This document shows positions 33,366-60,620 of a DNA stretch of 64,000 bases, piece by piece. The notes beneath the pieces are model-generated. The model was given only the letters and a program-made list of their open reading frames with translations. It was not told the origin of the DNA and did no database searches. Position 1 is the first letter of the stretch; every line of letters starts with the position of its first letter. The DNA is from a virus (taxonomy: Duplodnaviria; Caudoviricetes): IMG/VR virus record IMGVR_UViG_3300033074_001483, positions 21,517 through 85,516 of that record; one strand, written 5' to 3'. A program made the translations under genes and the position numbers.

Positions 33366-33581
33366 TTATTTTATTCGGTCCTGAATATCCTTGGAAGTCA
33401 AAGATTTCAATGCTTCCCGGTCCTCTTTTTTGAGGCGATTTACCAAATACCCCGGCTTTTTCGGACCAGTACCCAATGCGGCATGAAGAAGCAAACTATC
33501 AAAAACTTCTTGTGCTCGGCGTCGTTGTCGTCTAGTCAGTGATGACATATTTTCGGTATTCCTCGGGAGAAATTTTTTCAA
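33366..33581 (-). CDS. Small hypothetical protein
   Basis: 71 aa ORF downstream of coaD. Confidence 0.4.
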   Translation of the reverse strand: MKKFLPRNTENMSSLTRRQRRRAQEVFDSLLLHAALGTGPKKPGYLVNRLKKEDREALKSLTSKDIQDRIK

Positions 33582-33987
33582 TTGCTCTCAATGCGCTGGA
33601 ACTGATATGTCTCAAATTTGGATTGCAATAAAATGCAACAATCTTGACATAGGGTTCCATACTTCTCAGAAATGCAACGAAATTTTGTTCGTATTCCAAA
33701 TCTGCACCGCTGCGGAGTCCACGAACAAGTGTTACATCGTAATCCAAATTCCTTTCAAGACCCCGAATGTAATCGGAAAGTAATCCCCCGAATTCATCAC
33801 TATCCACATCCATATCTTTCAAGAAATTAACAGGAAGAGGGTGAGTAGAAAGTGGTTTTTCTGGATTAACACCACGAGCAACAATCACTTTGTCAAAAAC
33901 TTTAGTTGCCTGTTTGACAACATCTAAATGCCCAACGTGAAAGGGGTTGAACGAACCGGCGTAAACTCCAACTTTTAGTTTGCTCAT
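33532..33987 (-). CDS. coaD: Phosphopantetheine adenylyltransferase
   Basis: YAGSFNPFHVGH, RGLR..ADLEYE, ISSSALR motifs. Confidence 0.9.
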   Translation of the reverse strand: MSKLKVGVYAGSFNPFHVGHLDVVKQATKVFDKVIVARGVNPEKPLSTHPLPVNFLKDMDVDSDEFGGLLSDYIRGLERNLDYDVTLVRGLRSGADLEYEQNFVAFLRSMEPYVKIVAFYCNPNLRHISSSALRAIEKISPEEYRKYVITD

Positions 33988-34583
33988 ACTTTTACGATTA
34001 GTGCTTTATAACTCGGCAAACCCTTGACTCCCATCAATGGTACAATCTTCTCGGGTTTATCTTTGAAAAATTCATCTGTGGCAACTTTTGGTCCGGGCCA
34101 CAAATCCGTTCCGTAATCATCTATCAATACCACTGCACCTTTTTCCAGATGATTGTATATCAATCTTAATGCCGACTCAGTACTTGTTTTCAAATCACCA
34201 TCAAGATGTGCGAATGAAATCTTTAACGGAATGTCGGATTCGGTCAACTGTTCAAACCATCCTTTATGGATAATTGGGATAGGAACATTATACGATCTGA
34301 ATGTCAATAGAAAAGACTCTACCGAACTTGACATTTCTCCACCATGACCTTCAGCCCTTGGCAATCCCATAAAGCTATCATAAACATGAACGGGACGATT
34401 TGTGAGAGCATTTATCATTCTGGCAGTGTAACCCTCATGACATCCAAACTCAACTACATCACCTTCCAAATGCTCGGTTTCCATGACATAATGGCAAATG
34501 TGTACTATCCGTGAAAAGTCCTGCATTCCAATACAGGACTTCAACATTGTGGCAAGTTTTTGTGATAATGTTTCATCAAACAT
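33984..34583 (-). CDS. TylF/MycF-family O-methyltransferase
   Basis: GDVVEFG..G, YDSFMGLP, FAHLDGD, IDDY motifs. Confidence 0.88.
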   Translation of the reverse strand: MFDETLSQKLATMLKSCIGMQDFSRIVHICHYVMETEHLEGDVVEFGCHEGYTARMINALTNRPVHVYDSFMGLPRAEGHGGEMSSSVESFLLTFRSYNVPIPIIHKGWFEQLTESDIPLKISFAHLDGDLKTSTESALRLIYNHLEKGAVVLIDDYGTDLWPGPKVATDEFFKDKPEKIVPLMGVKGLPSYKALIVKV

Positions 34584-34584
34584 A

Positions 34585-34971
34585 TTACCACCATAGATGT
34601 CGGAACCACTCGGCAAATAATTCTATTCCCGCTTCATAGCGTTTCCAGTTTTTGTCTTGTTCTTCGGCAGTAAGTTTTGAATACTTTTCGTTTTCATGAT
34701 TAAGAGACCAATCAAATGCAAAAATCATTTCGTCCAAGTAATCATCCCATTGTTTAGAAGTCAACTGGCCGGGGAATCCCATATTGACTTCTTTGAAGCG
34801 AATAAGTCGTGGAAGAATAAACTCCGCAATCACCGAATCCAGACCCCAAGTTTCAGCATCCGAAAACCCTTGGGTTTTCAATTGTCTAAAATGCTTTTTG
34901 TATCGTTTGTCGGTTTTCTCAAGGTATAATGGTTCTTTGAGAGACCAACGACTTGTTAGTTTTTTGCTCAT
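34585..34971 (-). CDS. Hypothetical protein
   Basis: 128 aa, translationally coupled in the operon. Confidence 0.55.
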   Translation of the reverse strand: MSKKLTSRWSLKEPLYLEKTDKRYKKHFRQLKTQGFSDAETWGLDSVIAEFILPRLIRFKEVNMGFPGQLTSKQWDDYLDEMIFAFDWSLNHENEKYSKLTAEEQDKNWKRYEAGIELFAEWFRHLWW

Positions 34972-35423
34972 AGTGATGCATATAGACGACGAAATGCTGC
35001 TTCTTCATCCCACGTTCCTCCTGTCAGAACCTCGATACATCTTCCATGTGGGAGTTCAAAATCTGGAACATGATACTTTTCTCTTCCTCGGATTTCTCCT
35101 GTGAAAACATGAATTTCAACAACATCATTTCGTGAACCTTTGAATTCTTCTCGAACATCACGATACGGATTAACTGTTGACACAATGACATCAATTCCTT
35201 GATCTGCTATATGTGCTACAAACCGTTGGAGAGCACGAGTCTGTTCAATACGATATTCTTTGGTGAAATTTTCAGGTTTGTCGTAAGGAACAGCAAAGAT
35301 TTTTCGGAGGTTATCACCATCAAGATGGAGAACTGCTGAACCTTTGGCACGCAATTCAGAAGCGAGTCGTTTTGCCAATGTAGTCTTGCCACAACCGGGT
35401 TGTCCTATAAACCAGTAAATCAT
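34968..35423 (-). CDS. Adenylylsulfate kinase (CysC)-like P-loop kinase
   Basis: WFIGQPGCGKTT, LDGDNLR, VIVSTVNPY..R motifs. Confidence 0.8.
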   Translation of the reverse strand: MIYWFIGQPGCGKTTLAKRLASELRAKGSAVLHLDGDNLRKIFAVPYDKPENFTKEYRIEQTRALQRFVAHIADQGIDVIVSTVNPYRDVREEFKGSRNDVVEIHVFTGEIRGREKYHVPDFELPHGRCIEVLTGGTWDEEAAFRRLYASL

Positions 35424-35465
35424 GCCGTTATTATAGCATGGATACTATTGAAGTCAAGTGGAAAG

Positions 35466-35539
35466 TGGTGGAGCTAAAGGGAATTGAACCCTTATCTTCG
35501 CAGTGCGAGTGCGATGTCCTGCCGTTGAACGACAGCCCC
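35466..35539 (-). tRNA. tRNA-Ala(CGC)
   Basis: TCGCA-CTCGCAC-TGCGA; G3:U70; CCA. Confidence 0.92.
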
Positions 35540-35544
35540 ATTCG

Positions 35545-36225
35545 GGCAACTTGTCAGTCACCCACGATGTTACTCGTTATCCAAACCTATTTCTACGAGC
35601 TGCACGTAGATGCCAGTCTTGACCCTACCTCGGAACCTCGGTCAATCCTATAGCACGTTACTACAACAAAAGCCGCCGTTCCGCAGCGACGTGTCAGTTT
35701 AGAAATTCGGTGCTCATGGTCTGCTTATAGTACTCTGGAGGTCTCGCAGAAGCCCTGACCCAGACACGAGCAAAATATCGTTTGCAGATCGTATCGTCGA
35801 ACGATACGCTGTGCAAACGGAAAAATGGTGAGATGGGCAGTGCAAACTGCTTTCTACAGGGGGGACGGCACCACGTCTGTCCCTTATGGAGTACTCCTTT
35901 CGGGACGCCCATCTCATTCTGTTTTTGTCGCAGCCGTAGCCGCAATTCTGTTCTATCTCTACATTTTTCTCAAGGTCAACCATACGGTTGCCAAGTCCCT
36001 CACGGGATGCCTCAACCCGGGCTTTACAATGGGAAGCACTACCCTTTGCCCTGTTTGAGTTGCTGTTACTTTGTGGTGTTAACGAATGGTTTGCCCACGG
36101 TCAAGAGGGCGTCGGTAAAGACCCATTCTCCCAAACAGCTGCTTTACAGTTGCGAACTTCCTCTGGTTGCTCCTGTTCAGGCGGAACCAGCGTAGAGTCG
36201 CTTACGACAAAATTCTCAAAGAACT
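35545..36225 (-). ncRNA. Large structured ncRNA candidate (GOLLD/ROOL size class)
   Basis: ~680 nt without a credible ORF, many long hairpins, own promoter and boxA-like motif, adjacent to a tRNA. Confidence 0.6.
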
Positions 36226-36231
36226 GGTGGT

Positions 36232-36259
36232 ACGATACCACACTTCGTCAAAATGTCAA
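36232..36259 (-). promoter_or_regulatory. Sigma70-like promoter for the large RNA
   Basis: TTGACA-16-TATCGT with extended -10 TG; GTTCTTTGA at 36216-36224. Confidence 0.6.
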
Positions 36260-36264
36260 CCTTT

Positions 36265-36576
36265 TTATGGGATGACTGCACCTTGCCCCGGTGCTGGAGG
36301 GGGAGTAACCACTGGTGGAGTTACAACTGGAGGCGTAACCACTGGTGGTTGAGTATTGACTCCTGTTTTATTCTCCAAAAATCGTCTTGCTGTATAAGTT
36401 CCACAGAGGACCAGAGTTACATAAACATATGGTTCTGGTACATCGGCAAGTTTGTCCGTTTTGAAAGTGACGTATCCGATAAGTGTCATAAAGAACACCA
36501 TCCATATGAGAAACATCAGTCCTGTGCGGGACATTCTTCCTCGGTGGTCCAAGAGTAGTTCGATTGGTTTTGCCAT
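36265..36576 (-). CDS. Small membrane protein (holin-like topology) with PPVVT repeats
   Basis: Two TM helices; (PPVVT)3 tail. Confidence 0.55.
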   Translation of the reverse strand: MAKPIELLLDHRGRMSRTGLMFLIWMVFFMTLIGYVTFKTDKLADVPEPYVYVTLVLCGTYTARRFLENKTGVNTQPPVVTPPVVTPPVVTPPPAPGQGAVIP

Positions 36577-36689
36577 ATGTGATAAAAGTTGGTGCTGCCT
36601 ATCAGATTCGAACTGATACATTCTACCTTCTCAGGGTAGCGACTCCTTCCAGTTGGTCTAAGGCAGCGTTTGACTATCTATAAATAGTT

Positions 36690-37046
36690 TTAGAACCCCT
36701 GTTCCGACTCACGAAATTTCTTGATGTCTTCTAGCAATCCTTCTCGGTCATCACGGTATTTCTGAATCATGTAGGCAAATCCCTCACGGTCTTCTTCCTC
36801 CACCATTTCTGTAACGAATCTGGCAATGTCTTCGTCGGAGGGTTGCCAGTCAAACTCTTCACAAACAGCGGCGATTTTGGTTCCCATCGGGGTCATGTTG
36901 AATGCACATTCTACAAGACCAAGCTTTTGAATTTGGTCAAGGTAATGGATAATCATCATTACCGAAATGGTTTGGGTTGGTTCTTCAAACACACCCTCTA
37001 ACTTGAGGCGTTCGAGAATTGCCTTTACTGTTTCGTCAATTGTCAT
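36690..37046 (-). CDS. Hypothetical acidic protein
   Basis: 118 aa ORF with own promoter. Confidence 0.55.
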   Translation of the reverse strand: MTIDETVKAILERLKLEGVFEEPTQTISVMMIIHYLDQIQKLGLVECAFNMTPMGTKIAAVCEEFDWQPSDEDIARFVTEMVEEEDREGFAYMIQKYRDDREGLLEDIKKFRESEQGF

Positions 37047-37100
37047 AGGAAATTTTACCTTTCGGGAAGACTATAACATACATCTTCCCGAAAGTCAAGG

Positions 37101-37472
37101 TTAAAACCAGAGCCAATCGGCGTCCTTCTTGAAGGTGGGCATTACAGCATCGTAGTCGCCTTGGCGGATTTTCGCCAAGACACGACGCTCTTGTGCCTTG
37201 CGTTGTTTCCACAGAGTTTTACGGAAGTGTTTGGGAGCGTGATTCCAGTGTTTGTGAGTCCCATTTTCGATGGCACGGGCTTGACGCTCAATGCTTTCGA
37301 AATGACTTTTGATTTGTTCCAAAGTATCCCACAATCGCACCCAGTAGTCACGGGGAGCAACGTCAATGCGATACGGACAGAGAGTCTCGTAGGGATGATT
37401 TTGGTTACGGATACGATTCCAGTGTTTGACACGGAAGCGTCGGTTGCGAATGTACTTGTTTTCAGTTCTCAT
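37101..37472 (-). CDS. Hypothetical basic protein
   Basis: 123 aa ORF. Confidence 0.5.
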   Translation of the reverse strand: MRTENKYIRNRRFRVKHWNRIRNQNHPYETLCPYRIDVAPRDYWVRLWDTLEQIKSHFESIERQARAIENGTHKHWNHAPKHFRKTLWKQRKAQERRVLAKIRQGDYDAVMPTFKKDADWLWF

Positions 37473-37551
37473 TGGTTATGCGAACCTACACCTTTATGAT
37501 GTAAGTCACATACCAAAGAACATGAGTTGAGTTGTCATATACATAAGAAAT

Positions 37552-37629
37552 TGGTCGGAGTGATAGGATTTGAACCTACGACCTTCTGCTCCCAAAGCAG
37601 ACGCACTAGCCAAGCTGTGCTACACTCCG
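37552..37629 (-). tRNA. tRNA-Pro(TGG)
   Basis: TCTGC-TTTGGGA-GCAGA; CCA. Confidence 0.95.
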
Positions 37630-37642
37630 TTGTCTATAAATA

Positions 37643-37990
37643 TCAGTACGGTCTTGGTTTAGTTTTACCATCAACAATTGTTAAAGTTCCTTTTATTTTT
37701 GGCAATTCTTCAACTAATCCACCTACCGAGACGAGCGATTCGTTTTCGATTTTCGCTTTCTCTTGCAAATTCTTCTCGTCACGAGCAATGGTTTCGTCGG
37801 CGAGTTTCTTGTATTCGTCGGGGAGAGACTCTCCAACAGCTTTAAGAACGTCTCTAGCGAACTCTGCGTCCTTCTGGAGCCTTTCTTTAACAAACTCTTG
37901 GGCGAGTTCGACCTTTTTGCGTTGCACTTCTTGTGCGATCCAAACGTTCTTGGCATTCAGTTTTCTCTTTGCTGATCTTAATCCACCCAT
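37643..37990 (-). CDS. Hypothetical coiled-coil protein
   Basis: Start moved to MGGLRS to avoid overlap with the upstream gene. Confidence 0.45.
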   Translation of the reverse strand: MGGLRSAKRKLNAKNVWIAQEVQRKKVELAQEFVKERLQKDAEFARDVLKAVGESLPDEYKKLADETIARDEKNLQEKAKIENESLVSVGGLVEELPKIKGTLTIVDGKTKPRPY

Positions 37991-38006
37991 AACTAATTCT
38001 TTCTCA

Positions 38007-38339
38007 TTACTTGTTTTTATTTTGCCCCTGTCCTTGCCCTTGCCCCTGACTTCCCGAGTTTTGGTTTCCACCACCCTGATTGCCGCCTTGATTCCCCTGA
38101 TTTTCTTTGTCTTTCTTTTCCTTAATCTTTTTTCCATAGAAAAGACGACGAATCTTTTTCCATTCTTTTTCGTCATCGGTCAACGGCTTCCCGTGCTTGA
38201 CATCTGCTTCGATAAAAGAAGCAAGACTAGAAGATTCTGTAGTCATTACTTCTTCAGGGTCCAATGGACCAATGAAAGTAATATCGAGAAATGCGTACTG
38301 CCTTGTCTCAATGAATTCTTGTGCTTGATCTTCTGTCAT
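38007..38339 (-). CDS. Hypothetical protein with Q/G/N low-complexity tail
   Basis: Start moved to MTEDQ. Confidence 0.5.
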   Translation of the reverse strand: MTEDQAQEFIETRQYAFLDITFIGPLDPEEVMTTESSSLASFIEADVKHGKPLTDDEKEWKKIRRLFYGKKIKEKKDKENQGNQGGNQGGGNQNSGSQGQGQGQGQNKNK

Positions 38340-38343
38340 AAAT

Positions 38344-38417
38344 TGGTGGGCCATGATGGTTACGCTCCATCGTCTCATCAGTGTCAGTGATGAATTCTAC
38401 TATTAAACTAACAGCCC
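38344..38417 (-). tRNA. tRNA-Val(GAC)
   Basis: CATCA-CTGACAC-TGATG; T-loop AGCGTAA; CCA. Confidence 0.9.
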
Positions 38418-38489
38418 GTATTCCGTGATTAAAGCGGGTTCACGGAAAAAGAAACCATATCGCACGCCATAAGGCTGCGAGGAGCGACA

Positions 38490-38861
38490 TTAAGGAATGT
38501 CTCCGACCTTTAGCCACGTTGGGATAAACCCAATGTCATCAAGGACTCTTTTCTTGGTCTGGTTTATCACCGACTTGTAAACCCAATCGGGATACCCTTG
38601 ACAATACTCACGAATCTCTTGAGGAAAGAACAAAGGACACTGCAATTGCCGATCCCACATTCCTTCTGACCAAAGTTTGATTTGAAGATTGACCGACTCT
38701 TTCCCTTCTTGGGCACGCTTCACTAAGTCCCATTCCCGTGTCGGCACCATCAATCCATTTTCCAAACAGAGAAAGCTATACATTCCACTTTCACCATTTG
38801 GTTCATTCGGAGGTAAAAATCCCGGATGACATTCAAAGAGCTTTGGGAAATTGATGTACAA
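38490..38861 (-). CDS. Hypothetical protein
   Basis: 123 aa ORF. Confidence 0.5.
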   Translation of the reverse strand: MYINFPKLFECHPGFLPPNEPNGESGMYSFLCLENGLMVPTREWDLVKRAQEGKESVNLQIKLWSEGMWDRQLQCPLFFPQEIREYCQGYPDWVYKSVINQTKKRVLDDIGFIPTWLKVGDIP

Positions 38862-38973
38862 CTCCCAATTTTCAACAAATTCTTTTCTCTTAACCGCCCG
38901 ATACTTCGGGAGATTAACAGGCTTTAGATTCCCTTGTCCTTCATTGCGTTTGGCATTGTCATAGCATCCTCCG

Positions 38974-39159
38974 TCATTTGTTTTGTTGATGTCGCAGTAT
39001 GCGAAACACCGTACTAAGAATAATTACTATCGGCCACACCAAAACATTCAGTAACCAGAACGATATTCTCTCTTGCCAATTACCAAGGGGTGCCATTTCC
39101 ATGTACAGCAAAAAACCCCATACTAACCCGACCAGTAAATAAAGGACGATGTATAGCAT
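38974..39159 (-). CDS. Small membrane protein
   Basis: Two hydrophobic helices. Confidence 0.5.
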   Translation of the reverse strand: MLYIVLYLLVGLVWGFLLYMEMAPLGNWQERISFWLLNVLVWPIVIILSTVFRILRHQQNK

Positions 39160-39173
39160 GGGAGAACTCTACA

Positions 39174-39338
39174 CTATTTTGAAGTATCTGTCAAGTGCCA
39201 TTTCTTGCACGCCTTACATCGGTAAGGGCGAAGACAAGCCCCGAAACCGCCAAGCGACTCTTGAAGGATGCGATGAATCTCCCGCATTACTTCTTCTTTG
39301 GAAGCGTACTCACGCTTTCCTTGGCAGTGGAACTTCAT
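39174..39338 (-). CDS. Small zinc-ribbon protein
   Basis: Hand translation MKFHCQGKREY..RPYRCKACKKWHLT. Confidence 0.55.
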   Translation of the reverse strand: MKFHCQGKREYASKEEVMREIHRILQESLGGFGACLRPYRCKACKKWHLTDTSK

Positions 39339-39343
39339 GAATG

Positions 39344-39417
39344 TGGTAGGCGATATTGGAGTTGAACCAATGCCTGTTCTGTGTGAGAGAACTATTCTAC
39401 CGTTATAATAATCGCCT
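39344..39417 (-). tRNA. tRNA-Val(CAC)
   Basis: GTTCT-CTCACAC-AGAAC; CCA. Confidence 0.92.
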
Positions 39418-39421
39418 ATTG

Positions 39422-39718
39422 TTAGATTTTGACAAACTTACCGATGTTTCTTTCAATTGACTTCTTGGATTTGGGATCAAATCCCATTTCCCAACAATTG
39501 TCTTCGGCATCGGAATGACACCATAGAGATGGACTTCCCATTTCACCACCCGTATCAAAAATGACAACTTTCACTTTACTGCCATCCTTGAGTTCCATCT
39601 CGTCTTTACATTCTCCCCAACAAATCATAAAGACATCAGCAAGTTTATGAATCTTGCGCTTCTTTACGAACTTCAATCCGAGGGACTTCCAGTTTGTAAC
39701 TAATTCTTGGTTTGTCAT
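39422..39718 (-). CDS. Hypothetical protein
   Basis: Start moved to MTNQ. Confidence 0.45.
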   Translation of the reverse strand: MTNQELVTNWKSLGLKFVKKRKIHKLADVFMICWGECKDEMELKDGSKVKVVIFDTGGEMGSPSLWCHSDAEDNCWEMGFDPKSKKSIERNIGKFVKI

Positions 39719-39722
39719 AAAT

Positions 39723-39813
39723 TGGCGGTAGGCTGAGGTCACGCTCCCCACACCCGTCTAAGGGGTGCAATCACGTTAGCACCGTGTTCTGGGCCTCGCC
39801 CAGTTAACCTACC
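39723..39813 (-). tRNA. tRNA-Ser(GCT)
   Basis: Loop GT-GCT-AA; long variable arm; T-loop AGCGTGA; CCA. Confidence 0.85.
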
Positions 39814-40178
39814 AAAAACTGCGGTATTGTCGAAACACTTATTTGATTTCTTCCATCGAGAATGTTTGATGGAATGAGATACTTTTTCTCATCCCCATCT
39901 ACAATGAATACCAAATCACAATCTTCTTTGGATAAATGTTTGATGTCCAACTTTTTTCCTCGTGTGTTACTTACGGTTCTCAACTCAACATTATAAGTGT
40001 TGTGTTTGTTTTTCTTAAAGCACGTTTTTACTTGAACTCTAAGACACTTACCGTCCTTTTCCACAATCAAATCATAAGGTTGACTATCAGATAGTGGAAC
40101 TGCAACTGTATATTCCATTTTGAGGAAATACGCAATCGCATATCCAGTTCCAACATCACCTTGTTTTCGACTATTCAC
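39804..40178 (-). CDS. PD-(D/E)XK homing endonuclease, I-Ssp6803I-like
   Basis: QGDVG..PLSDSQPYDLIV..RVQVKT motif; stop codon inside tRNA-Ser(GCT). Confidence 0.85.
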   Translation of the reverse strand: MNSRKQGDVGTGYAIAYFLKMEYTVAVPLSDSQPYDLIVEKDGKCLRVQVKTCFKKNKHNTYNVELRTVSNTRGKKLDIKHLSKEDCDLVFIVDGDEKKYLIPSNILDGRNQISVSTIPQFLVG

Positions 40179-43709: not shown

Positions 43710-44071
43710 ATTTTTGTTACAGGAAGATAGGAAGTAATCATCCATCCCTTCTTCCATTTGACAGTACCATTGGGTTCGCCAAAAATACCATCGTAAATCT
43801 TATCTCCATCTACCACAACCCAATGCCAACCACTTTTCCGTTTGGGGTCGCTTAGATGACCAATGCCAAGTGGAGGGCGGGGTATTTTCTGACATCTATC
43901 GGGGCAATCAAATCCCAATGCTCGCAAACCACGAGCAAGGTCTTTGGTAGTGGTGCTGCCTTTCTTTCCAATTGCAGTCTCGGCAACAGAAAGAGAAACA
44001 TCGGCGATGACTGCTACAGCAATGACACCGCAGTTTTTCTTGTTAGGTAACTGTCTGATCCATTTTCTCAT
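43700..44071 (-). CDS. Papain-like (C39-like) peptidase domain protein
   Basis: NCGVIAVA..HWVVVDG..IYDG motif; last codons overlap the tRNA-Arg(TCT) 5' end. Confidence 0.6.
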   Translation of the reverse strand: MRKWIRQLPNKKNCGVIAVAVIADVSLSVAETAIGKKGSTTTKDLARGLRALGFDCPDRCQKIPRPPLGIGHLSDPKRKSGWHWVVVDGDKIYDGIFGEPNGTVKWKKGWMITSYLPVTKMAT

Positions 44072-44571
44072 TTTCGATTCCTTTCACTATTTCTTCCAGA
44101 AAAAGTTGGAGTTTGAGAATTGCAGTTGGGACAAATAAAGCGTAGATTACTTAGCCGGTGATCAGAATGTTTTCCATTGATATGATCTAAAACAAAAGTC
44201 AGTGGCATCCCATTCCATTCTGACGTTTGCTTACAAATGGAACACGCTGCACACGAAATTAGACCCCACTTCAAGATCAATCTTCGCAACGTAGAGTTGT
44301 CTTTGATTACACCATTATTGATAGCATCAACGATGTTTTCTTGTGTATATTTTCTTACGAAGCGGCGACCTTTGTTGCTATTAAGTCCAGTCTTAATGTG
44401 GGCAATATCAATACCATCTTCACGAATGCGTTTTTTGAGGGTATTGTAATTTCCGGCTTCAGCTTCAAGTCCAAAACTTCGGATGATTTGGGCGAGGGAC
44501 GAATGTTGGCGGCAAAGTGCATAAAAGTCATCTTTCGATAACTTCCATATTGGCGATGTTCTATTTCTCAT
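44068..44571 (-). CDS. HNH homing endonuclease
   Basis: CSIC..FVLDHINGKHSDHRLSNLRFICPNCNSQT. Confidence 0.9.
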   Translation of the reverse strand: MRNRTSPIWKLSKDDFYALCRQHSSLAQIIRSFGLEAEAGNYNTLKKRIREDGIDIAHIKTGLNSNKGRRFVRKYTQENIVDAINNGVIKDNSTLRRLILKWGLISCAACSICKQTSEWNGMPLTFVLDHINGKHSDHRLSNLRFICPNCNSQTPTFSGRNSERNRK

Positions 44572-44628
44572 ACCAATAAATAGCAATAAGGATAGGATTA
44601 TTCACAAGAAAATAATGTCCTATCAAAA

Positions 44629-46608: not shown

Positions 46609-47049
46609 TTATGAAATTCTGTTTTTGTACCAATGATTATTCTTAGCAAACTCTCGTTTGATATGGCAGTGGGCACATAAAAGATCACATTTCGCAATCT
46701 CTTTCAATATGCGTTTCCAACCGAATATCGTTAGCATTGTTGAAACATCATAATCCTTTTCGTTGGGATCACGATGATGAAATTGAAACAAGCGGATGTC
46801 GGTCTCGGGACAATCTTTACAAGTCTTACCTTGTAAAAACTGAATCATATTTTCCCGATTTCTATCACGCTGAATGCGTTTATTTTTGTAAGCTCTTTTT
46901 AACGCATCTTTTCTATGTTTTTTGTAATGTTTTCTGCTGTAAGAATCGTGGCATTCTTTACATTTGCTTTGCAAGATTCCCATTGCTTTGTTACGGAATG
47001 AGAAATGCGACTCGTCTTTTGGATTATGACATGCACTACATATTTTCAT
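46609..47049 (-). CDS. HNH homing endonuclease
   Basis: CKDCPE.DIRLFQFHH..EIAKCDLLCAHCH; paralog of 31414, 32676 and 49019. Confidence 0.88.
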   Translation of the reverse strand: MKICSACHNPKDESHFSFRNKAMGILQSKCKECHDSYSRKHYKKHRKDALKRAYKNKRIQRDRNRENMIQFLQGKTCKDCPETDIRLFQFHHRDPNEKDYDVSTMLTIFGWKRILKEIAKCDLLCAHCHIKREFAKNNHWYKNRIS

Positions 47050-48939: not shown

Positions 48940-49028
48940 TGGTGCAGCCGACAGGATTCGAACCTGCGTGGGAAATGGTTATCCATCAGCTTAAAAGGCT
49001 GTTGCCTCGGCCACTTGGCTACGACTGC
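48940..49028 (-). tRNA. tRNA(TTT) (Lys anticodon) on a type II-like scaffold
   Basis: Loop CT-TTT-AA; Leu/Tyr-type D arm; ~18-nt variable region; A73; CCA. Confidence 0.85.
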
Positions 49029-49435
49029 ATTTGACGTTTTTTCCACTCCAACTTTCTATGACAATTGGAGCAAATAACATCGCATTTTTCAATTTCAGCA
49101 AGAAGTTTCTCTTTTGGCCATCCAGCATAAACAGCCTTGCTGATTTCCATCTCTTTTGTAGATGGGTCTCGATGATGAAAATCCAATGTAGCAATATGAA
49201 TTTCTGGGCATAGCAAACATTTGGATTTTGCTTTGATGTCATTGACTAAATCCAGAAGCTCCGCTTTTTTGCTCTTGATATATGCCTTGTGTTTTTGTTT
49301 ATTTGAGGCATAGTATTTCTTGGATGATTTGCGATTACACTCTCGGCACACGCCCTGCAATCCATCTTTTTTGGATGCTTTGCGATTAAACTCGGAGAGC
49401 GGTTTTTTCTTTTTACAAGTATTACATCGTTTCAT
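49019..49435 (-). CDS. HNH homing endonuclease
   Basis: CLLCPE..LDFHH..EIEKCDVICSNCH; TAG stop inside the tRNA. Confidence 0.88.
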   Translation of the reverse strand: MKRCNTCKKKKPLSEFNRKASKKDGLQGVCRECNRKSSKKYYASNKQKHKAYIKSKKAELLDLVNDIKAKSKCLLCPEIHIATLDFHHRDPSTKEMEISKAVYAGWPKEKLLAEIEKCDVICSNCHRKLEWKKRQMQS

Positions 49436-49487
49436 ATACTCATAAATAGTGATTTTAACTCTCAAAAGAGTTAAAATCCAAAAGAAC

Positions 49488-53513: not shown

Positions 53514-53587
53514 TGGTCGTAGTACGTGGTACTGCCCCACGGTCTAGCGATTATCAGTCGCTTGCTCTACTTTTGAGCTATACTACG
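53514..53587 (-). tRNA. tRNA-Ile(GAT)
   Basis: AGCGA-CTGATAA-TCGCT; T-loop GGCAGTA; CCA. Confidence 0.9.
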
Positions 53588-53980
53588 TTTGCTTTGGAGA
53601 TATAAAGCTCCTTCTCGCATTCTTTTTCTACCTTCGTGAGAAGCATTTTTTACTCCCCACGTTTCTGTTTGAGTATGACAGTTGGGACAAATCATTCTCA
53701 AATTTTCACGGCGGTTATCTTTTTTGTTTCCGTTGATGTGGTCTATTTGAAGACGTAGTGGTTTTTTGTTCCACTCCATTCCTTGTCCACATTCTCCACA
53801 AACCTGTGGAAAGTTTTCATATATCCACCGCCTCATTTGTTTATTCATTGTAGAACCAAGAACAAGACGTTGACTTATGGTATAATCACCACGGCATTTG
53901 TTAGAACAAAATTTTCCACGAGTTTGACTTGGGCGGAATTCAAACTGTTTCTTACAGAATTGGCAGATTGCTTCTTGCAT
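53567..53980 (-). CDS. HNH homing endonuclease
   Basis: CGECG..LQIDHINGNKKDNRRENLRMICPNCHTQT; stop inside tRNA-Ile. Confidence 0.9.
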   Translation of the reverse strand: MQEAICQFCKKQFEFRPSQTRGKFCSNKCRGDYTISQRLVLGSTMNKQMRRWIYENFPQVCGECGQGMEWNKKPLRLQIDHINGNKKDNRRENLRMICPNCHTQTETWGVKNASHEGRKRMREGALYLQSKRSIAQK

Positions 53981-56259: not shown

Positions 56260-56272
56260 GTCTCAAAGAACA

Positions 56273-56533: not shown

Positions 56534-56542
56534 TTTTCAAAT

Positions 56543-56635
56543 TGGTCGGCGTGCTCGGTACTGCCCCGAGAACTCACACTCATCTAGTGTTTAAGCAGTT
56601 TATAAGGCTGCTGGCTTTCTTTAAGCTACACGCCG
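56543..56635 (-). tRNA. tRNA-Ile(TAT) with long variable arm
   Basis: GCAG(C)-CTTATAA-(A)CTGC; variable hairpin ACACT/AGTGT; A73; CCA. Confidence 0.78.
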
Positions 56636-56636
56636 A

Positions 56637-56915
56637 TTAACGCATCAAAGAATTGAAAATCGGTGGATTATTGGTATCCAATTTAGATCCCAATGAAGGT
56701 GTGTACCACCTTTTTGTATCCAACGGTTCAATCTTTTCCCATAGTTCCACTGTTACTGTGCCGTCTGCATTCGCCATTTCTGGTGAAACAAAACGATACT
56801 TTTGTCCACGAACATCAGTGACCACTGTGGGATCAATGTAAGGTTGCTTTTCAACTACCGGACGACATCCGAGGACGAACACCGATAGCAAAATCACTAA
56901 CCATACATTTCTCAT
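56637..56915 (-). CDS. Putative lipoprotein
   Basis: Signal peptide with lipobox VLGC. Confidence 0.6.
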   Translation of the reverse strand: MRNVWLVILLSVFVLGCRPVVEKQPYIDPTVVTDVRGQKYRFVSPEMANADGTVTVELWEKIEPLDTKRWYTPSLGSKLDTNNPPIFNSLMR

Positions 56916-56921
56916 ACAAAT

Positions 56922-56995
56922 TGGAGCCCAAGGACGGTTACGCTCCGTCGTCTCAGCTTTACCAAAGCCGTGTACTGCTATTGTACTACATGGGC
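56922..56995 (-). tRNA. tRNA-Thr(GGT)
   Basis: CGGCT-TTGGTAA-AGCTG; CCA. Confidence 0.88.
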
Positions 56996-56996
56996 G

Positions 56997-57071
56997 TGGA
57001 GCACTATGTCGGTAACGCCCCGACTACTGATGGTTGGAAGCCACCTGTGTATCTATAAACACCTATAGTGC
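56997..57071 (-). tRNA. tRNA-Gly(TCC)
   Basis: GGTGG-CTTCCAA-CCATC; U73; CCA. Confidence 0.87.
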
Positions 57072-57073
57072 GT

Positions 57074-57147
57074 TGGAGCATCGTGCGGGAATCGAACCCG
57101 CTTGGCCAGCTTGGAAGGCTGGAGCACGGCCAATATGCCAACGATGC
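57074..57147 (-). tRNA. tRNA-Gly(TCC), copy 2
   Basis: CCAGC-CTTCCAA-GCTGG; U73; CCA. Confidence 0.92.
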
Positions 57148-57246
57148 ACTTACAAAGATCAAATCCGTTAGACAGACTCGGAACCTCACATCATACGGAG
57201 GGTTTATCCGAATGGCTCTTTTTGGCACTTCACATCTGTCAAAAAT

Positions 57247-57320
57247 TGGAGCGGATGAAGGGAATCGAACCCTCACTTCGGCCTTGGCAAGGCTGTAGGC
57301 TACCACTACATCACATCCGC
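57247..57320 (-). tRNA. tRNA-Gly(GCC)
   Basis: Loop TT-GCC-AA; U73; CCA. Confidence 0.92.
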
Positions 57321-57339
57321 ATCAAAGAACAATCAAAAT

Positions 57340-57413
57340 TGGTAGCTGATACTGGTTCTGCCCCAGTGTCTTGACCTTATGAGGATCTTGTTCTACTATT
57401 GAACTAATCAGCC
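57340..57413 (-). tRNA. tRNA(CAT), probably elongator Met
   Basis: Loop CT-CAT-AA; T-loop GGCAGAA; CCA. Confidence 0.85.
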
Positions 57414-57424
57414 ATTACACCGCT

Positions 57425-57453
57425 ACTCTACCTGATAAATAGATGCTTGTCAA
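57425..57453 (-). promoter_or_regulatory. Sigma70-like promoter heading the tRNA region
   Basis: TTGACA-17-TAGAGT; TATTTAT in the spacer. Confidence 0.65.
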
Positions 57454-57567
57454 ACAAAATCGCATTTTTCTGCGACTTTTTTTAACCGCCATTTGCTCGG
57501 GTTGAAGGCGTTCTCAACGTTACGGGAAGAAGTATATCACACTTCTTGGATTTGTCAAGCCCCTATT

Positions 57568-58056
57568 TTAATCGTCTGGGGAATCGCCTCCCAGAGGGTC
57601 TCCGTGTTGTTTGTGGTATCGAATCTCTTCCGCATTGTTGTCAACATAATCGGCATATTCTTGTTCCATATGTCCTTCAACAAGTCTGTCAATTCGTTGA
57701 GCAGCAAGTTTAGCTTTACGCTCGTCCAAAATGTCTTTTTCAGTGAATGCTACATCAGCATCCAGCTTATAAACAACATCTTTGTTGCTTCCACCTTCAA
57801 TGAAAATTTCTGCATAGATGGTGTACTCGGGGAAAAACGTAATGTTATCATCCGATGCCAGCTTCAAATCAATATGAGTTTCAACATCATCTTGCCATTC
57901 TTCATCATCCATTGATCCCATGACGGAAACTTGCTTTACCAATGGAACATGACCCTCACTTTTGAGAGTAATCTCCCAGTCTTTACCAGCAGACCATTTT
58001 TGTTTCTGCAATTCCCGCACAATCCGCAGGAGAATGGCTTGGATTCGTTCGTTCAT
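57568..58056 (-). CDS. Hypothetical acidic protein
   Basis: 162 aa; TATTTATA upstream. Confidence 0.55.
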   Translation of the reverse strand: MNERIQAILLRIVRELQKQKWSAGKDWEITLKSEGHVPLVKQVSVMGSMDDEEWQDDVETHIDLKLASDDNITFFPEYTIYAEIFIEGGSNKDVVYKLDADVAFTEKDILDERKAKLAAQRIDRLVEGHMEQEYADYVDNNAEEIRYHKQHGDPLGGDSPDD

Positions 58057-58077
58057 ACAGGTATAAATATAACCGTA

Positions 58078-58395
58078 TTAGGGTAAAGTGATATGTTTGA
58101 TAAACTCCTTTACCTCATCCTTGAAAGGATATGGCAGGGGAGGTTCCACGGGGGCGGTTGAATAAACTCCCCAAGCACACCACCAACCACATTCTGGACA
58201 AGAATTGCTTCCTCCACCATCCTTGGTCTTGACCGTAATCATGTTTGGGTGGGGACATTTCGCCTGATAGTCAAACTCTTGCTGAACTATCTTCATTACT
58301 TCTTCATTGAAGATGTCATCAATGCACTTTTTCAAATCTTCTTGCTGCTTGCGAAGAAGATTCTTCTTCTCGGTCATTCGTTCAGTAAAGGTCAT
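58078..58395 (-). CDS. Hypothetical protein with zinc ribbon
   Basis: CPHP..CPECG. Confidence 0.55.
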   Translation of the reverse strand: MTFTERMTEKKNLLRKQQEDLKKCIDDIFNEEVMKIVQQEFDYQAKCPHPNMITVKTKDGGGSNSCPECGWWCAWGVYSTAPVEPPLPYPFKDEVKEFIKHITLP

Positions 58396-58399
58396 GCGC

Positions 58400-59536
58400 T
58401 TATTCCTTTTTGAATTCTTTCTCAGGGGCGTTGTACGCTTCCTTCAAATACTGTGTTGGGTCTTGAAGGTAATGAATACTTTTCTCATATCCGTCAGATG
58501 GTTTGTAATATCCATGAGGATACATTTCAATGTGGAGCATACTTGGCTTCCAACCCTGAAGTTCTGGATGCTGTGGTCTATCTGGCGGAATTACCCGCAG
58601 TACTTCACCAATGCGAGTATCGCCCCGACGAACTTTGTCACCAACACGTACGCACGGCTTGATTTCGCCATAGCACACCACACCCGTTGCTCCTTCAACA
58701 AGAACACAGTCGGTATCCAACCACCAAGGACTGTTATCTTTTGGACCCGTGAATGGTTCAACCGCTACAACTATACCATTTTCAACTGGCACAACGGGTG
58801 TACCAACATCACAATACAAATCCACGCCTGTATGCGTAGAGTTCTTTCGCTTGGCATTGAATGCTCCCGGGTGAGTGCAAACGGGAATGCCTTCACAAAG
58901 TTGTTTCTCCCACGGATATTGGCCGGGGATGGGGAAAGACCATCGCAACGCCTCTTGGGTCGCTTCTACAATATCCTCAATGTTTGCCATAGCACCCATT
59001 CCATAGGTATTACAGGCAAGCATCTTTGCTTGGGGAGGAACAATTTTGTATCCCCAACTACGAAGCGTCTTGATATGCTGCTCTGTAATGGGATGATTCC
59101 ACATGTGAGTATTCATTGCGGGTGCAATGATAACAGGACGATTTTGATCCCACGCCCGAGCAACAGACGTAAGAAGATTATCGCACAATCCATTTGCCAG
59201 CTTCGCAAGTGTATTGGCAGAACATGGAGCAATCACCAAAACACTATACTTATCCCGAAGCTCAATATGGAGAACGGGGTCATCTTTTCTCCATTTGGAT
59301 TCCATGTGGTCATCATGGTTGAAAAACTTGCCTTTGCTCGGCGTATCCGAATGAAACCAGTGCCACTCGTGCCATTCACGCAAGACTTTGATTCCATTGA
59401 ACTCGTCTGAGACAAAATGCTCCGCTCTCGGTGTGAGAACAGTCGTTACATCTCCAACTTTCTGAAGCTCATTGACCAGTTTCACGTACAAAACTGATGC
59501 AACGCTTCCAGTTAGTCCAAGCAATACTTTTCTCAT
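58400..59536 (-). CDS. coaC: Phosphopantothenoylcysteine decarboxylase fused to an M23 peptidase-like domain
   Basis: GLTGSVA, HIEL, APCSANTLAKLANGLCDNL, PAMNTHMW, LAC..G.GAM; C-terminal HTGVDL..LHIE. Confidence 0.88.
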   Translation of the reverse strand: MRKVLLGLTGSVASVLYVKLVNELQKVGDVTTVLTPRAEHFVSDEFNGIKVLREWHEWHWFHSDTPSKGKFFNHDDHMESKWRKDDPVLHIELRDKYSVLVIAPCSANTLAKLANGLCDNLLTSVARAWDQNRPVIIAPAMNTHMWNHPITEQHIKTLRSWGYKIVPPQAKMLACNTYGMGAMANIEDIVEATQEALRWSFPIPGQYPWEKQLCEGIPVCTHPGAFNAKRKNSTHTGVDLYCDVGTPVVPVENGIVVAVEPFTGPKDNSPWWLDTDCVLVEGATGVVCYGEIKPCVRVGDKVRRGDTRIGEVLRVIPPDRPQHPELQGWKPSMLHIEMYPHGYYKPSDGYEKSIHYLQDPTQYLKEAYNAPEKEFKKE

Positions 59537-59880
59537 AATCCTCTTTCTCTTACTTCCAACTCGCCCAAATTACCAACAGCGTGTGCCAATTCGTGATAGT
59601 AAACTTGTCTCACAGATTCCATCGCTCCTTTCATATCTTGATTGCAGTGTTCATAAATCTGCCCTGCAAAAATAGCAATGGTGTTTGTCCATTTGTTATA
59701 ACACCCCAAAACCGTAGCATTCTTCCACACATCAAGCGGAAACTGATACTTATCCACTATAGTAAGAATCTGGTCTGCTTTCTTCCCCACTTCTGGTGGA
59801 AGATCATTTTGTGCCTGTACAATAGTTGTATCTACTGCATCACAAATCTCATTCCACTGTTCGTCGGTGAATTCAATCAT
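59533..59880 (-). CDS. Small zincin-like metalloprotein
   Basis: YYHELAHAVG HExxH motif. Confidence 0.7.
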   Translation of the reverse strand: MIEFTDEQWNEICDAVDTTIVQAQNDLPPEVGKKADQILTIVDKYQFPLDVWKNATVLGCYNKWTNTIAIFAGQIYEHCNQDMKGAMESVRQVYYHELAHAVGNLGELEVRERGL

Positions 59881-60620
59881 AATTTGACAGTGTGTTCGGC
59901 AACCATTCGTGCCAAGAAATTTGGGTCGCTTGGGTTGGTCTTGTAAGTGACGGGTTCTTTATTTGGGAATACCAAATGTACCTGATGTTTATTTTCCTTG
60001 ATGTCCTGCAAATCATTGGCAACAATCATATCACATTTGTTATCGGCGATACTCTTCTTAGCAGCATCAATGAGTTGATAATCTTTACTACCAACGAGAA
60101 GTTTGAACCCCACCAATTTGGTTGTAGGCAACCACTCTTTGATAAAGTAAATCAACTTTGGCAATTGCTCCAACTCAATCTTGAGAGCATCATTGGAGCG
60201 AATCTTTCCTTTGACGGGGTTCTTGACGCCATAATCGCTAACCGCAGCAGCGAGAACTACAACATCTGGACGATAGATTTTGAGAATGCGCTCAAGGCGT
60301 TCCTTGTAATCATCGAAGGTGCGATATTCCATCTGTTTGTAGCGATTGAGCATCGGAACTTTTTCCTTCATCATCTCAATCGCCAGAAGATGTTTCATCG
60401 TCCAGCCTTCCGTATCACCCACACCATAACCTTCGGCAAGGTCAATCTCAAATTTGAATGGAGTACGTCCTCCTTTGGCAGTAAAGAAAAAGACTTCATG
60501 CCCCAACTTGAGCAACTCCAAGGCAATCTTGCTGCCGAAAGTGCCACGAGACATATTCGTAATGTCCCGCACCATATCAATGGGTATTTTAGTGCCGCCC
60601 GACGTAACGAGGATATTCAT
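59877..60620 (-). CDS. coaB: Phosphopantothenate--cysteine ligase
   Basis: LVTSGGTKIPID.VR.ITN.S.G.FG, LAAAVSDY, LVGFKL, IVANDL motifs. Confidence 0.9.
   Translation of the reverse strand: MNILVTSGGTKIPIDMVRDITNMSRGTFGSKIALELLKLGHEVFFFTAKGGRTPFKFEIDLAEGYGVGDTEGWTMKHLLAIEMMKEKVPMLNRYKQMEYRTFDDYKERLERILKIYRPDVVVLAAAVSDYGVKNPVKGKIRSNDALKIELEQLPKLIYFIKEWLPTTKLVGFKLLVGSKDYQLIDAAKKSIADNKCDMIVANDLQDIKENKHQVHLVFPNKEPVTYKTNPSDPNFLARMVAEHTVKL

What the first reader, a model, noticed from the sequence alone, without database searches (positions are those of the whole stretch)
33532..60620. Phage-encoded coenzyme A pathway core: coaB, coaC and coaD, with a CysC-like kinase as possible CoaE substitute
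Seen: CoaD (33532-33987) in a coupled operon with a TylF methyltransferase and an APS-kinase-like enzyme; CoaB (59877-60620) and CoaC (58400-59536) in a second coupled operon, with signature motifs intact. Known: CoaB, CoaC and CoaD convert phosphopantothenate to dephospho-CoA; CoaE and APS kinase both phosphorylate an adenosine 3'-OH. Inference: the phage boosts or restores CoA (or dephospho-CoA, a known non-canonical RNA cap), perhaps against cofactor-depleting defence, by analogy with phage NAD+ reconstitution. No pantothenate kinase is visible here.
Basis: partly seen in the sequence, partly recalled or inferred. Interest (0 to 1): 0.75.

Follow-up and report, generated by a model that had tools for sequence, protein, structure and literature searches.

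The report
Huge-phage coenzyme A synthesis genes
A roughly 350-kb uncultured phage carries intact-looking genes for the middle three steps of coenzyme A synthesis, plus a virus-specific kinase that may do the last step; they form two separately inherited gene modules, and nothing shows that they counter a host defence.

Summary
CoaD (33532-33987), CoaB (59877-60620) and CoaC (58400-59536) are real minus-strand genes in two translationally coupled operons, one inside and one at the edge of a 40-tRNA array. The contig is a fragment of a huge myophage (CheckV about 24% complete).

All three fall in the CoA families and not in LanD or NadD: PDB hits, catalytic residues and an AlphaFold model (Z 26 to plant PPC decarboxylase) agree. 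All three score below NCBIfam equivalog cut-offs.

New points:
- CoaC is fused to an M23/LytM-fold zinc domain with a remodelled active site. I found this fusion only in viruses, next to CoaB in every locus examined.
- CoaB-CoaC::M23 and kinase-CoaD are independent modules. Complete huge-phage genomes carry one without the other.
- The kinase is an APS-kinase-family member (Z 16-19), not a CoaE (Z about 11). It lies beside CoaD in at least ten contigs. No CoaE was found in any record with this pairing; one other phage has canonical CoaE beside CoaD.

The CoaE-substitute idea therefore gains comparative support but is unproven. The counter-defence idea has no support. This scan had already noted the CoaB/CoaC::M23 pair and CoaE-CoaD cassettes on other phage DNA.

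The parts
34968..35423 (-). APS-kinase-family P-loop kinase (151 aa) with a short lid; candidate dephospho-CoA kinase analogue
   Evidence: PF01583 scores 60.3 bits but covers only profile positions 4-107 of 152. The AF2 model has pLDDT 91.9. Its top five structural matches are APS kinases at Z 16.2-18.8, while DPCK reaches only Z about 11. The P-loop, D35/D37, R40 and R58 are invariant in 30 homologues.
35430..35457 (-). Sigma-70-like promoter (TTGACT, 16 nt, TG-TATAAT) ending 6 nt before the kinase ATG
   Evidence: Matches 11 of 12 consensus positions and has an extended -10. Sequence read. This is a consensus match only.
34585..34971 (-). 128-aa protein of unknown function, often between kinase and CoaD
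   Evidence: No Pfam match. It is 56-66% identical to the ORF at the same position in L047-L049. It is absent in L053 and L057. Homologues occur in unrelated phages.
33984..34583 (-). TylF-family SAM-dependent methyltransferase (199 aa from the ATG at 34583); lineage-specific insertion
   Evidence: PF05711 scores 56.4 bits. It is present next to CoaD only in the closest relative, L222, and absent from the other CoaD and kinase loci.
33532..33987 (-). CoaD-like phosphopantetheine adenylyltransferase (151 aa)
   Evidence: TIGR01510 gives E 1.8e-24 at 86.5 bits, below the 103.3 cut-off. 34 of 35 PDB hits are PPAT. The motifs GSFNPFHVGH, NPEKP, RGLRSGADLEYE and ISSS are present.
59877..60620 (-). 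CoaB-like phosphopantothenate-cysteine ligase (247 aa, monofunctional type)
   Evidence: PF04127 scores 102.7 bits. PRK06732 scores 142 bits, below the 265 cut-off. Best PDB hits are 2GK4 at E 1e-25 and human PPCS at 3.5e-11. The motifs SGGT, NMSRG, AAAVSDY, KGKI, FKL and VAN align.
59533..59880 (-). 115-aa zincin-like ORF with an HELAH motif; variable and not part of the conserved core
   Evidence: PF06262 scores 19.7 bits, below its cut-off. A homologue exists only in L016. Other loci have unrelated small ORFs or none at this position.
58937..59536 (-). CoaC domain (residues 1 to about 200): FMN-dependent phosphopantothenoylcysteine decarboxylase
   Evidence: PF02441 scores 116.9 bits. Human and Arabidopsis PPCDC score 136-143 bits. 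H90, N142 and C175 are invariant in 33 homologues. The AF2 model matches 1MVN at Z 26.1, rmsd 2.0 A over 179 residues, 43% identity.
58400..58936 (-). M23/LytM-fold domain fused to CoaC (residues about 200-378); zinc ligands kept, catalytic histidines replaced
   Evidence: PF01551 scores 24.3 bits, below the 28.7 cut-off. Fold matches are EnvC LytM at Z 14.5, StM23 at 14.3 and lysostaphin at 13.8. H235, D239, H335, E291 and M333 are invariant.

Best explanation
The phage carries two auxiliary metabolic modules of the coenzyme A pathway.

Module 1 is CoaB plus the CoaC::M23-like fusion. It would convert host 4'-phosphopantothenate and cysteine into 4'-phosphopantetheine.

Module 2 is CoaD, transcribed with a virus-specific kinase of the APS-kinase family. 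It would adenylylate 4'-phosphopantetheine to dephospho-CoA. The kinase would then probably phosphorylate the adenosine 3'-OH to give CoA, the same chemistry APS kinase performs on APS.

With host pantothenate kinase supplying the first step, the phage would control CoA or phosphopantetheine supply during infection, independently of host CoaBC and CoaD.

Shown: family membership by sequence, catalytic residues and predicted fold; operon coupling; conservation and phyletic pattern.

Inferred: the actual substrates, the kinase's role, the role of the M23-like domain (unknown; possibly an amide hydrolase or an assembly domain), and any benefit to the phage.
For: CoaC:
- 136-143 bits to human and plant PPCDC, against 62 or less to LanD enzymes.
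- His90/Asn142/Cys175 invariant.
- Model Z 26 to AtHAL3a.

CoaD:
- Best NCBIfam hit is TIGR01510.
- 34 of 35 PDB hits are PPAT, and the PPAT motifs are present.

CoaB:
- DFP domain.
- Aligns over its full length to the CoaB-type protein 2GK4 and to human PPCS, with the family motifs.

Genes and operons:
- ATGA-coupled operons.
- GC content like the neighbouring genes.

Module 1 conservation:
- CoaB lies next to CoaC::M23 in every fusion locus in which CoaB was searched.
- It is also next to it in the 735-kb phage LR756501.
- The 120 best-scoring homologues (49% identity or more) are all full length.

Kinase and CoaD:
- Kinase-(small ORF)-CoaD is conserved in L047, L048, L049, L051, L052, L053, L056, L057 and L224.
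- The kinase keeps the APS-kinase catalytic DGD and the Arg/Phe substrate residues.
- Canonical CoaE is absent from the own contig and from G001 and G012, which carry CoaD plus the kinase.
- Another phage, G009, has canonical CoaE 66 bp downstream of CoaD. This fits non-orthologous displacement.
- Relatives also fuse an APS-kinase-like domain to another HxGH adenylyltransferase.
Against: - All three enzymes score below their NCBIfam equivalog cut-offs: 86.5 against 103.3, 131 against 261, and 142 against 265.
- The two modules are not co-inherited. G004 and G007 (complete genomes) have CoaB and CoaC::M23 but no CoaD or kinase. G012 (complete) has CoaD and the kinase but no CoaC; CoaB was not searched there.
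- Among close relatives, whole-genome synteny alone could explain the kinase-CoaD adjacency.
- In G001 and G012 the kinase and CoaD lie about 33-35 kb apart.
- Kinase homologues at 35-43% identity lie with HAD phosphatase, GHMP kinase and carbamoyltransferase genes and have no CoaD nearby.
- CoaD occurs without the kinase in G002 and, as far as tested, in Caulobacter and Brevundimonas jumbo phages.
- The invariant, remodelled M23-like domain has no place in the textbook pathway.
- No pantothenate kinase was found.
- No expression or biochemical data exist.
Confidence: 0.6

Rival explanations
1. Only CoaB, CoaC and CoaD act on CoA intermediates. The kinase is unrelated: a true APS kinase, or a small-molecule or sugar kinase. 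It sits beside CoaD only because of inherited gene order in an accessory region, and the host CoaE finishes CoA.
For: - The kinase is an APS-kinase-family member by sequence and fold.
- Homologues at 35-43% identity are embedded in HAD phosphatase, GHMP kinase and carbamoyltransferase clusters without CoaD.
- In G001 and G012 the kinase and CoaD are about 33-35 kb apart.
- Neighbouring unknown ORFs are syntenic as well.
Against: - Among loci whose kinase is at least 46% identical, every contig long enough to judge also carries CoaD.
- Adjacency survives rearrangements: the intervening ORF is present, replaced or absent.
- No ATP sulfurylase or sulfotransferase was seen near it.
- The lid that closes over sulfate in APS kinases is shortened.
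Confidence: 0.3
2. The kinase-methyltransferase-nucleotidyltransferase operon acts on RNA or tRNA ends (healing, marking or capping) and serves the surrounding tRNA array. This would be analogous in logic to Pnkp/Hen1 repair.
For: - The operon lies inside a 40-tRNA array.
- The kinase also matches PSTK, KTI12 and the PHROG 'polynucleotide kinase' family weakly.
- Viral relatives of the kinase occur fused to HAD phosphatases, a PNKP-like architecture.
- A HAD_SAK_2 RNA-repair phosphatase lies 5 kb upstream in relative L048.
- Caulobacter phage CoaD sits next to a ligase-like gene and near an RNA ligase.
Against: - CoaD matches PPAT over its full length, but other nucleotidyltransferases only at the HxGH motif.
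- The methyltransferase is TylF-type, not Hen1, and is absent from most relatives.
- No RNA ligase, phosphatase or HAD_SAK_2 homologue is in this contig.
- The rest of the array holds homing endonucleases and unknown ORFs.
Confidence: 0.1
3. CoaB and CoaC::M23 do not feed CoA. The fused zinc hydrolase-like domain cleaves the amide of the product. The pair would then cycle phosphopantothenate to release cysteamine, or would build or modify another cysteamine-bearing compound.
For: - The fusion is maintained over about 43-93% identity, with invariant zinc ligands H235, D239 and H335 plus invariant E291 and M333.
- I found it only in viruses.
- Complete genomes G004 and G007 carry this pair without CoaD, CoaE or PanK.
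- In L037 the M23-like gene, CoaC and CoaB are separate neighbours.
Against: - Both canonical catalytic histidines of M23 peptidases are replaced.
- The closest structural match is the non-catalytic EnvC LytM domain.
- Stand-alone homologues of the domain are common in huge phages without CoaB or CoaC.
- The host's own CoaD and CoaE could simply use the phosphopantetheine.
- In this phage clade CoaD is present.
Confidence: 0.1

Closest known systems
Monofunctional PPC decarboxylases: Arabidopsis AtHAL3a (1E20, 1MVN) and human PPCDC (1QZU)
   Same: Same fold (Z 23-26) at 40-45% identity. Catalytic His90, Asn142 and Cys175 are present, as are the PAMNxxMW motif and the ACxxxGxGAM clamp.
   Different: Carries a C-terminal M23/LytM-fold zinc domain of about 180 aa, and an insertion around residues 40-85. 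Below the TIGR02113 cut-off.
Monofunctional CoaB: S. pneumoniae 2GK4, and human PPCS 1P9O
   Same: Full-length alignment with the family motifs. A separate gene, as in Lactobacillales and eukaryotes.
   Different: Below the PRK06732 and TIGR02114 cut-offs. Nucleotide preference (CTP or ATP) unknown.
Bacterial PPAT/CoaD (E. coli 1B6T)
   Same: Same length. HxGH, K42-like, RGLR and ISSS motifs present. Roughly 30% identity.
   Different: 86.5 bits against a TIGR01510 cut-off of 103.3. Phage clade, encoded with an APS-kinase-like kinase instead of standing alone.
APS kinase CysC (2YVU, 2GKS, human PAPSS1 kinase domain)
   Same: Closest sequence family and fold (Z 16-19, 25-31% identity). P-loop, DGD, and Arg and Phe substrate residues present.
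   Different: About 150 aa against 175-200. The lid region is shortened and only profile positions 4-107 align. Almost entirely viral family. Linked to CoaD, not to sulfate activation.
Phage CoaD-CoaE 'CoA finishing' pairs and eukaryotic COASY (PPAT plus DPCK)
   Same: An adenylyltransferase coupled with a kinase for the adenosine 3'-OH. One phage record, G009, has CoaD followed by canonical CoaE.
   Different: Here the kinase partner is from the APS-kinase family, not the CoaE family, and the proteins are not fused.
Phage NAD+ reconstitution pathways
   Same: Phage-encoded cofactor synthesis genes.
   Different: For NAD+ a depleting defence and its rescue have been shown experimentally. For CoA no depleting defence was found in the literature searched.

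Membership tests
PPC decarboxylase (CoaC/PPCDC, HFCD flavoproteins) | Flavoprotein domain above the Pfam gathering score | tested here: met
   PF02441 scores 116.9 bits against a cut-off of 22.7.
PPC decarboxylase (CoaC/PPCDC, HFCD flavoproteins) | Catalytic His90, Asn142 and the clamp Cys175 that distinguishes PPCDC from LanD enzymes (AtHAL3a numbering, from established knowledge) | tested here: met
   All three are present and invariant in 33 homologues.
PPC decarboxylase (CoaC/PPCDC, HFCD flavoproteins) | Score above the NCBIfam equivalog cut-off | tested here: not met
   TIGR02113 scores 131.2 against 261.4, and TIGR00521 scores 130.8 against 219.7. The match covers only residues 84-196.
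PPC decarboxylase (CoaC/PPCDC, HFCD flavoproteins) | Decarboxylation of 4'-phosphopantothenoylcysteine | not testable with these tools
   Needs an enzyme assay or complementation.
Phosphopantothenate-cysteine ligase (CoaB/PPCS) | DFP domain above the Pfam cut-off, with the family motifs | tested here: met
   PF04127 scores 102.7 against 22. The motifs align to 2GK4 and human PPCS.
Phosphopantothenate-cysteine ligase (CoaB/PPCS) | Score above the equivalog cut-off | tested here: not met
   PRK06732 scores 142.1 against 265, and TIGR02114 scores 124.6 against 217.2.
Phosphopantetheine adenylyltransferase (CoaD/PPAT) | HxGH and ISSS nucleotidyltransferase motifs plus the PPAT-type K42 and RGLR motifs | tested here: met
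   Sequence and alignments.
Phosphopantetheine adenylyltransferase (CoaD/PPAT) | Closest characterised relatives are PPATs, not NadD, NMNAT or TagD | tested here: met
   34 of 35 PDB hits are PPAT. NMNAT-type models match only residues 3-48.
Phosphopantetheine adenylyltransferase (CoaD/PPAT) | Score above the TIGR01510 cut-off | tested here: not met
   86.5 bits against 103.3.
Dephospho-CoA kinase (CoaE, PF01121) | Sequence or closest-fold membership, tested for the kinase at 34968-35423 | tested here: not met
   No CoaE hit in Pfam or NCBIfam. DPCK structures reach Z 10.7-11.0, against 16.2-18.8 for APS kinases. Function as a DPCK analogue remains possible.
APS kinase (CysC, PF01583) | Pfam domain, P-loop, DGD motif, and fold | tested here: met
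   PF01583 scores 60.3 against 21.1. Motifs. Fold.
APS kinase (CysC, PF01583) | Full-length match including the lid, and a score above the equivalog cut-off | tested here: not met
   Profile positions 4-107 of 152 only. TIGR00455 scores 59.4 against 138.7.
M23 metallopeptidase | HxxxD and HxH motifs and a Pfam score above the cut-off | tested here: not met
   HTGVD is present, but HxH reads MLH and the mid-domain His is Glu. PF01551 scores 24.3 against 28.7. The fold itself is M23/LytM at Z 13-14.5.

The most novel reading that the evidence does not exclude
Huge phages have their own version of the late CoA pathway, with two parts not described before. The first is a short-lid, APS-kinase-derived enzyme that replaces CoaE as dephospho-CoA kinase. 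The second is a virus-only PPC decarboxylase fused to a remodelled M23 zinc domain, which adds an undescribed step such as amide hydrolysis, cysteamine release or complex assembly.
Probability: 0.3. Interest if true: 0.7.

Novelty: new variant of a known kind. Interest (0 to 1): 0.55.

Why it matters
Phage-encoded cofactor synthesis is established for NAD+. For CoA it is so far only an annotation: coaD and coaE appear in AMG lists and jumbo-phage records.

This work yields three testable items:
- a conserved CoaB-CoaC::M23 module that I found only in viruses and that spans many huge phages;
- a candidate new family of dephospho-CoA kinase derived from APS kinase;
- a clear statement that the two modules are independent.

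If confirmed, these would show that large phages take control of CoA or phosphopantetheine supply, and would add a non-orthologous enzyme to a universal pathway. If the kinase acts on something else, the finding reduces to ordinary auxiliary metabolic genes.

Tried and rejected
- DNA-level searches of the phage collection gave nothing useful, only a tRNA-Met match.
- A single-protein scan of IMG/VR with CoaC found nothing; the alignment-based scan did.
- The ENA and NCBI contigs behind L008 and L010 are not held for whole-record searches. Whole-genome absence could therefore be tested only in IMG/VR records.
- The LanD-type reading of CoaC is rejected. Cys175 is present, and PPCDC matches score far higher than EpiD or MrsD.
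- The NadD/NMNAT reading of CoaD is rejected. Those models match only the HxGH region.
- The zincin-like ORF is not a conserved pathway member; it occurs only here and in L016.
- The 128-aa ORF and the TylF methyltransferase are not obligatory partners.
- The Microcystis phage MaAM05 coaD does not count as a phage precedent. It lies beside rplA, rplK, nusG and secE, so that stretch looks like bacterial DNA.
- My first guess that the kinase's 'FTG' corresponds to the APS-kinase FTG motif was dropped, because it is not conserved in the family.
- Literature searches found no CoA-depleting defence and no description of the CoaC-M23 fusion.
- Sequencing-run search: no RNA holder is listed.
- Pfam scans of 20 further ORFs in the tRNA array found only HNH and PD-(D/E)XK endonucleases.

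Full report
**Context.** The window is the last 64 kb of an 85.5-kb linear viral contig. CheckV puts its completeness at about 24%, which implies a genome of roughly 350 kb. The first 20 kb of the window carry tail-fibre and baseplate-wedge genes. Positions 30.2-57.3 kb hold 40 tRNA genes, all on the minus strand, interspersed with small ORFs and with HNH and PD-(D/E)XK homing endonucleases. By baseplate protein, the nearest cultured relatives are a Microcystis phage (44% identity) and Flavobacterium phages (36%).

**Observation.**
- Operon 1 runs kinase, 128-aa ORF, TylF methyltransferase, CoaD. Its junctions are ATGA, TAA-T-ATG and ATGA.
- A near-consensus sigma-70-like promoter ends 6 nt before the kinase ATG.
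- Operon 2 runs CoaB, 115-aa zincin-like ORF, CoaC. Both junctions are ATGA overlaps.
- Gene GC content (0.39-0.46) matches the surroundings.

**Are these CoA enzymes?**
- CoaC, N-terminal half:
  - It scores 136-143 bits against human and Arabidopsis PPC decarboxylases. EpiD scores 62 and MrsD 34.
  - His90, Asn142 and the clamp Cys175 are present. By established knowledge, Cys175 separates PPC decarboxylases from LanD peptide decarboxylases. All three are invariant in 33 homologues.
  - An AlphaFold model (pLDDT 90.8) superposes on AtHAL3a at Z 26.1, rmsd 2.0 A over 179 residues.
- CoaD:
  - Its best NCBIfam model is TIGR01510, E 1.8e-24.
  - 34 of 35 PDB hits are PPATs, and the HxGH, Lys, RGLR and ISSS motifs are present.
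  - NMNAT and NadD models match only the first ~45 residues.
- CoaB:
  - It has a DFP domain.
  - It aligns over its full length to the S. pneumoniae CoaB-type protein 2GK4 and to human PPCS, with the family motifs.
- All three lie below the NCBIfam equivalog cut-offs. They are therefore divergent members.

**The kinase.**
- It is an APS-kinase-family protein (PF01583, 60.3 bits), but only profile positions 4-107 align.
- The model (pLDDT 91.9) matches five APS kinases best, at Z 16.2-18.8. Dephospho-CoA kinases reach Z about 11.
- The P-loop, the DGD motif and the Arg and Phe residues that align with APS-kinase substrate residues are conserved in 30 homologues.
- The segment between the last two strands is short. 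I read this as a reduced lid; that is an inference.
- The family is almost entirely viral.

**The fusion.**
- CoaC residues about 200-378 form an M23/LytM fold. Matches are the EnvC LytM domain at Z 14.5, StM23 at 14.3 and lysostaphin at 13.8.
- The three zinc ligands (H235, D239, H335) are invariant.
- The two catalytic histidines of M23 peptidases are replaced by an invariant Glu291 and Met333.
- The 120 best-scoring homologues (49% identity or more) are all full length, on contigs of up to 406 kb.
- A scan of 185,579 species genomes returned only matches to the CoaC half.
- The Atlas cluster with this architecture is 100% viral.
- In one contig (L037) the M23-like gene, CoaC and CoaB are separate neighbours.
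- Stand-alone homologues of the domain occur in many huge phages without CoaB or CoaC.
- The role of this domain is unexplained.

**Module structure.**
- CoaB lies directly beside CoaC::M23 in every fusion locus in which CoaB was searched. This includes the 735-kb phage LR756501.
- The intervening small ORF is variable.
- Two complete IMG/VR genomes, of 527 and 364 kb, carry this pair but no CoaD, kinase, CoaE or PanK.
- Conversely, a complete 365-kb genome carries CoaD and the kinase but no CoaC or CoaE; CoaB was not searched there.
- The closest clade to this window has both modules on the same contigs, 28-33 kb apart with the tRNA array between them.
- The 'pathway core' is therefore two independently inherited modules.

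**Kinase-CoaD link.**
- Kinase-(small ORF)-CoaD recurs in L047, L048, L049, L051, L052, L053, L056, L057 and L224. The intervening ORF is present, replaced or absent.
- 21 contig lengths are shared between the top-120 hit lists of the two proteins, many of them under 12 kb. This is a proxy for shared contigs.
- Another phage lineage has canonical CoaE 66 bp downstream of CoaD.
- Notes from this scan report further CoaE-CoaD cassettes on other phage DNA. I checked only the one case above.
- Relatives also encode a fusion of an APS-kinase-like domain with an NMNAT-like HxGH adenylyltransferase.
- Together these fit non-orthologous displacement of CoaE.
- Against this reading:
  - kinase homologues at 35-43% identity sit in HAD phosphatase, GHMP kinase and carbamoyltransferase clusters without CoaD;
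  - the kinase and CoaD can be more than 30 kb apart;
  - CoaD occurs alone in other jumbo phages.

**Accessory genes.** The TylF methyltransferase is next to CoaD only here and in the closest relative, which has 92% identical CoaD. The 128-aa ORF belongs to a family spread across unrelated phages.

**Comparison with what is known.** coaD is annotated in Caulobacter, Brevundimonas, Myxococcus and Lak phages. coaD and coaE appear among the most abundant AMGs of snow viromes (PMC11097641). I found no paper describing the CoaC-M23 fusion, the APS-kinase-like partner of CoaD, or a CoA-depleting defence. First-reader notes from this scan had already flagged the CoaB/CoaC::M23 pair in several other phage genomes.

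**Verdict.**
- The enzymes are CoA-family members.
- The CoaE-substitute idea is plausible and now has comparative support, but it is unproven.
- The counter-defence reading is speculation.
- I rate this a new variant of a known kind, namely phage cofactor-synthesis AMGs, of moderate interest.

Noticed in passing
window 30270-57320: 40 tRNA genes, all on the minus strand, interspersed with small unknown ORFs. The CoaD operon lies inside this array and the CoaB-CoaC operon at its upstream edge. The same layout is seen in relatives.
   Followed up: partly
window 35430-35457 (-): Near-consensus promoter (TTGACT, 16 nt, TG-TATAAT) whose -10 element ends 6 nt before the kinase ATG. This suggests a leaderless or nearly leaderless transcript starting at A.
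   Followed up: no
L052:9143-9868 and L222:3652-4458: Relatives encode a 241-268-aa fusion of an APS-kinase-like domain with a minimal NMNAT-like adenylyltransferase (RWQPFHEGH ... ISGT). The architecture resembles NadR, a known NAD-salvage fusion of an NMN adenylyltransferase with a ribosylnicotinamide kinase. It is absent from this window.
   Followed up: partly
window 32676-33185, 46609-47049, 49019-49465, 31414-31737 (all -): A family of paralogous proteins of about 110-170 aa with no Pfam match, scattered through the tRNA array (34-40% identity to one another).
   Followed up: no
window 39804-40178, 44068-44586, 53567-53980 (-): PD-(D/E)XK and HNH homing-endonuclease-like genes inside the tRNA array.
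   Followed up: no
L218 (Caulobacter phage C2) and L219 (Brevundimonas phage): In cultured jumbo siphophages the annotated CoaD sits directly after an ATP-dependent ligase-like gene and near an RNA ligase (C2), or two genes after a peptidyl-tRNA hydrolase (Brevundimonas).
   Followed up: partly
L220 (Microcystis phage MaAM05 record, 33391-39846): The annotated phage coaD lies beside rplA, rplK, nusG, secE and a tRNA-Trp. This stretch of the 'phage' record looks like bacterial chromosome.
   Followed up: no
L059-L096 (IMG/VR): Kinase homologues at 35-43% identity share a different conserved neighbourhood: a HAD phosphatase-like gene upstream, then a 197-aa unknown, GHMP kinase, NifU, 2OG-Fe(II) oxygenase and carbamoyltransferase.
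   Followed up: partly
L008 and L010, upstream of CoaB: Relatives carry SIR2, R2K ATP-grasp, dual-specificity phosphatase and NAD-dependent epimerase genes 3-8 kb upstream of CoaB. The corresponding region lies beyond the end of this contig.
   Followed up: no
window 27287-28075 (-): PhoH-like ATPase, 81% identical to that of the 312-kb relative. It lies downstream of CoaD in relatives L047-L049, L052 and L224.
   Followed up: no
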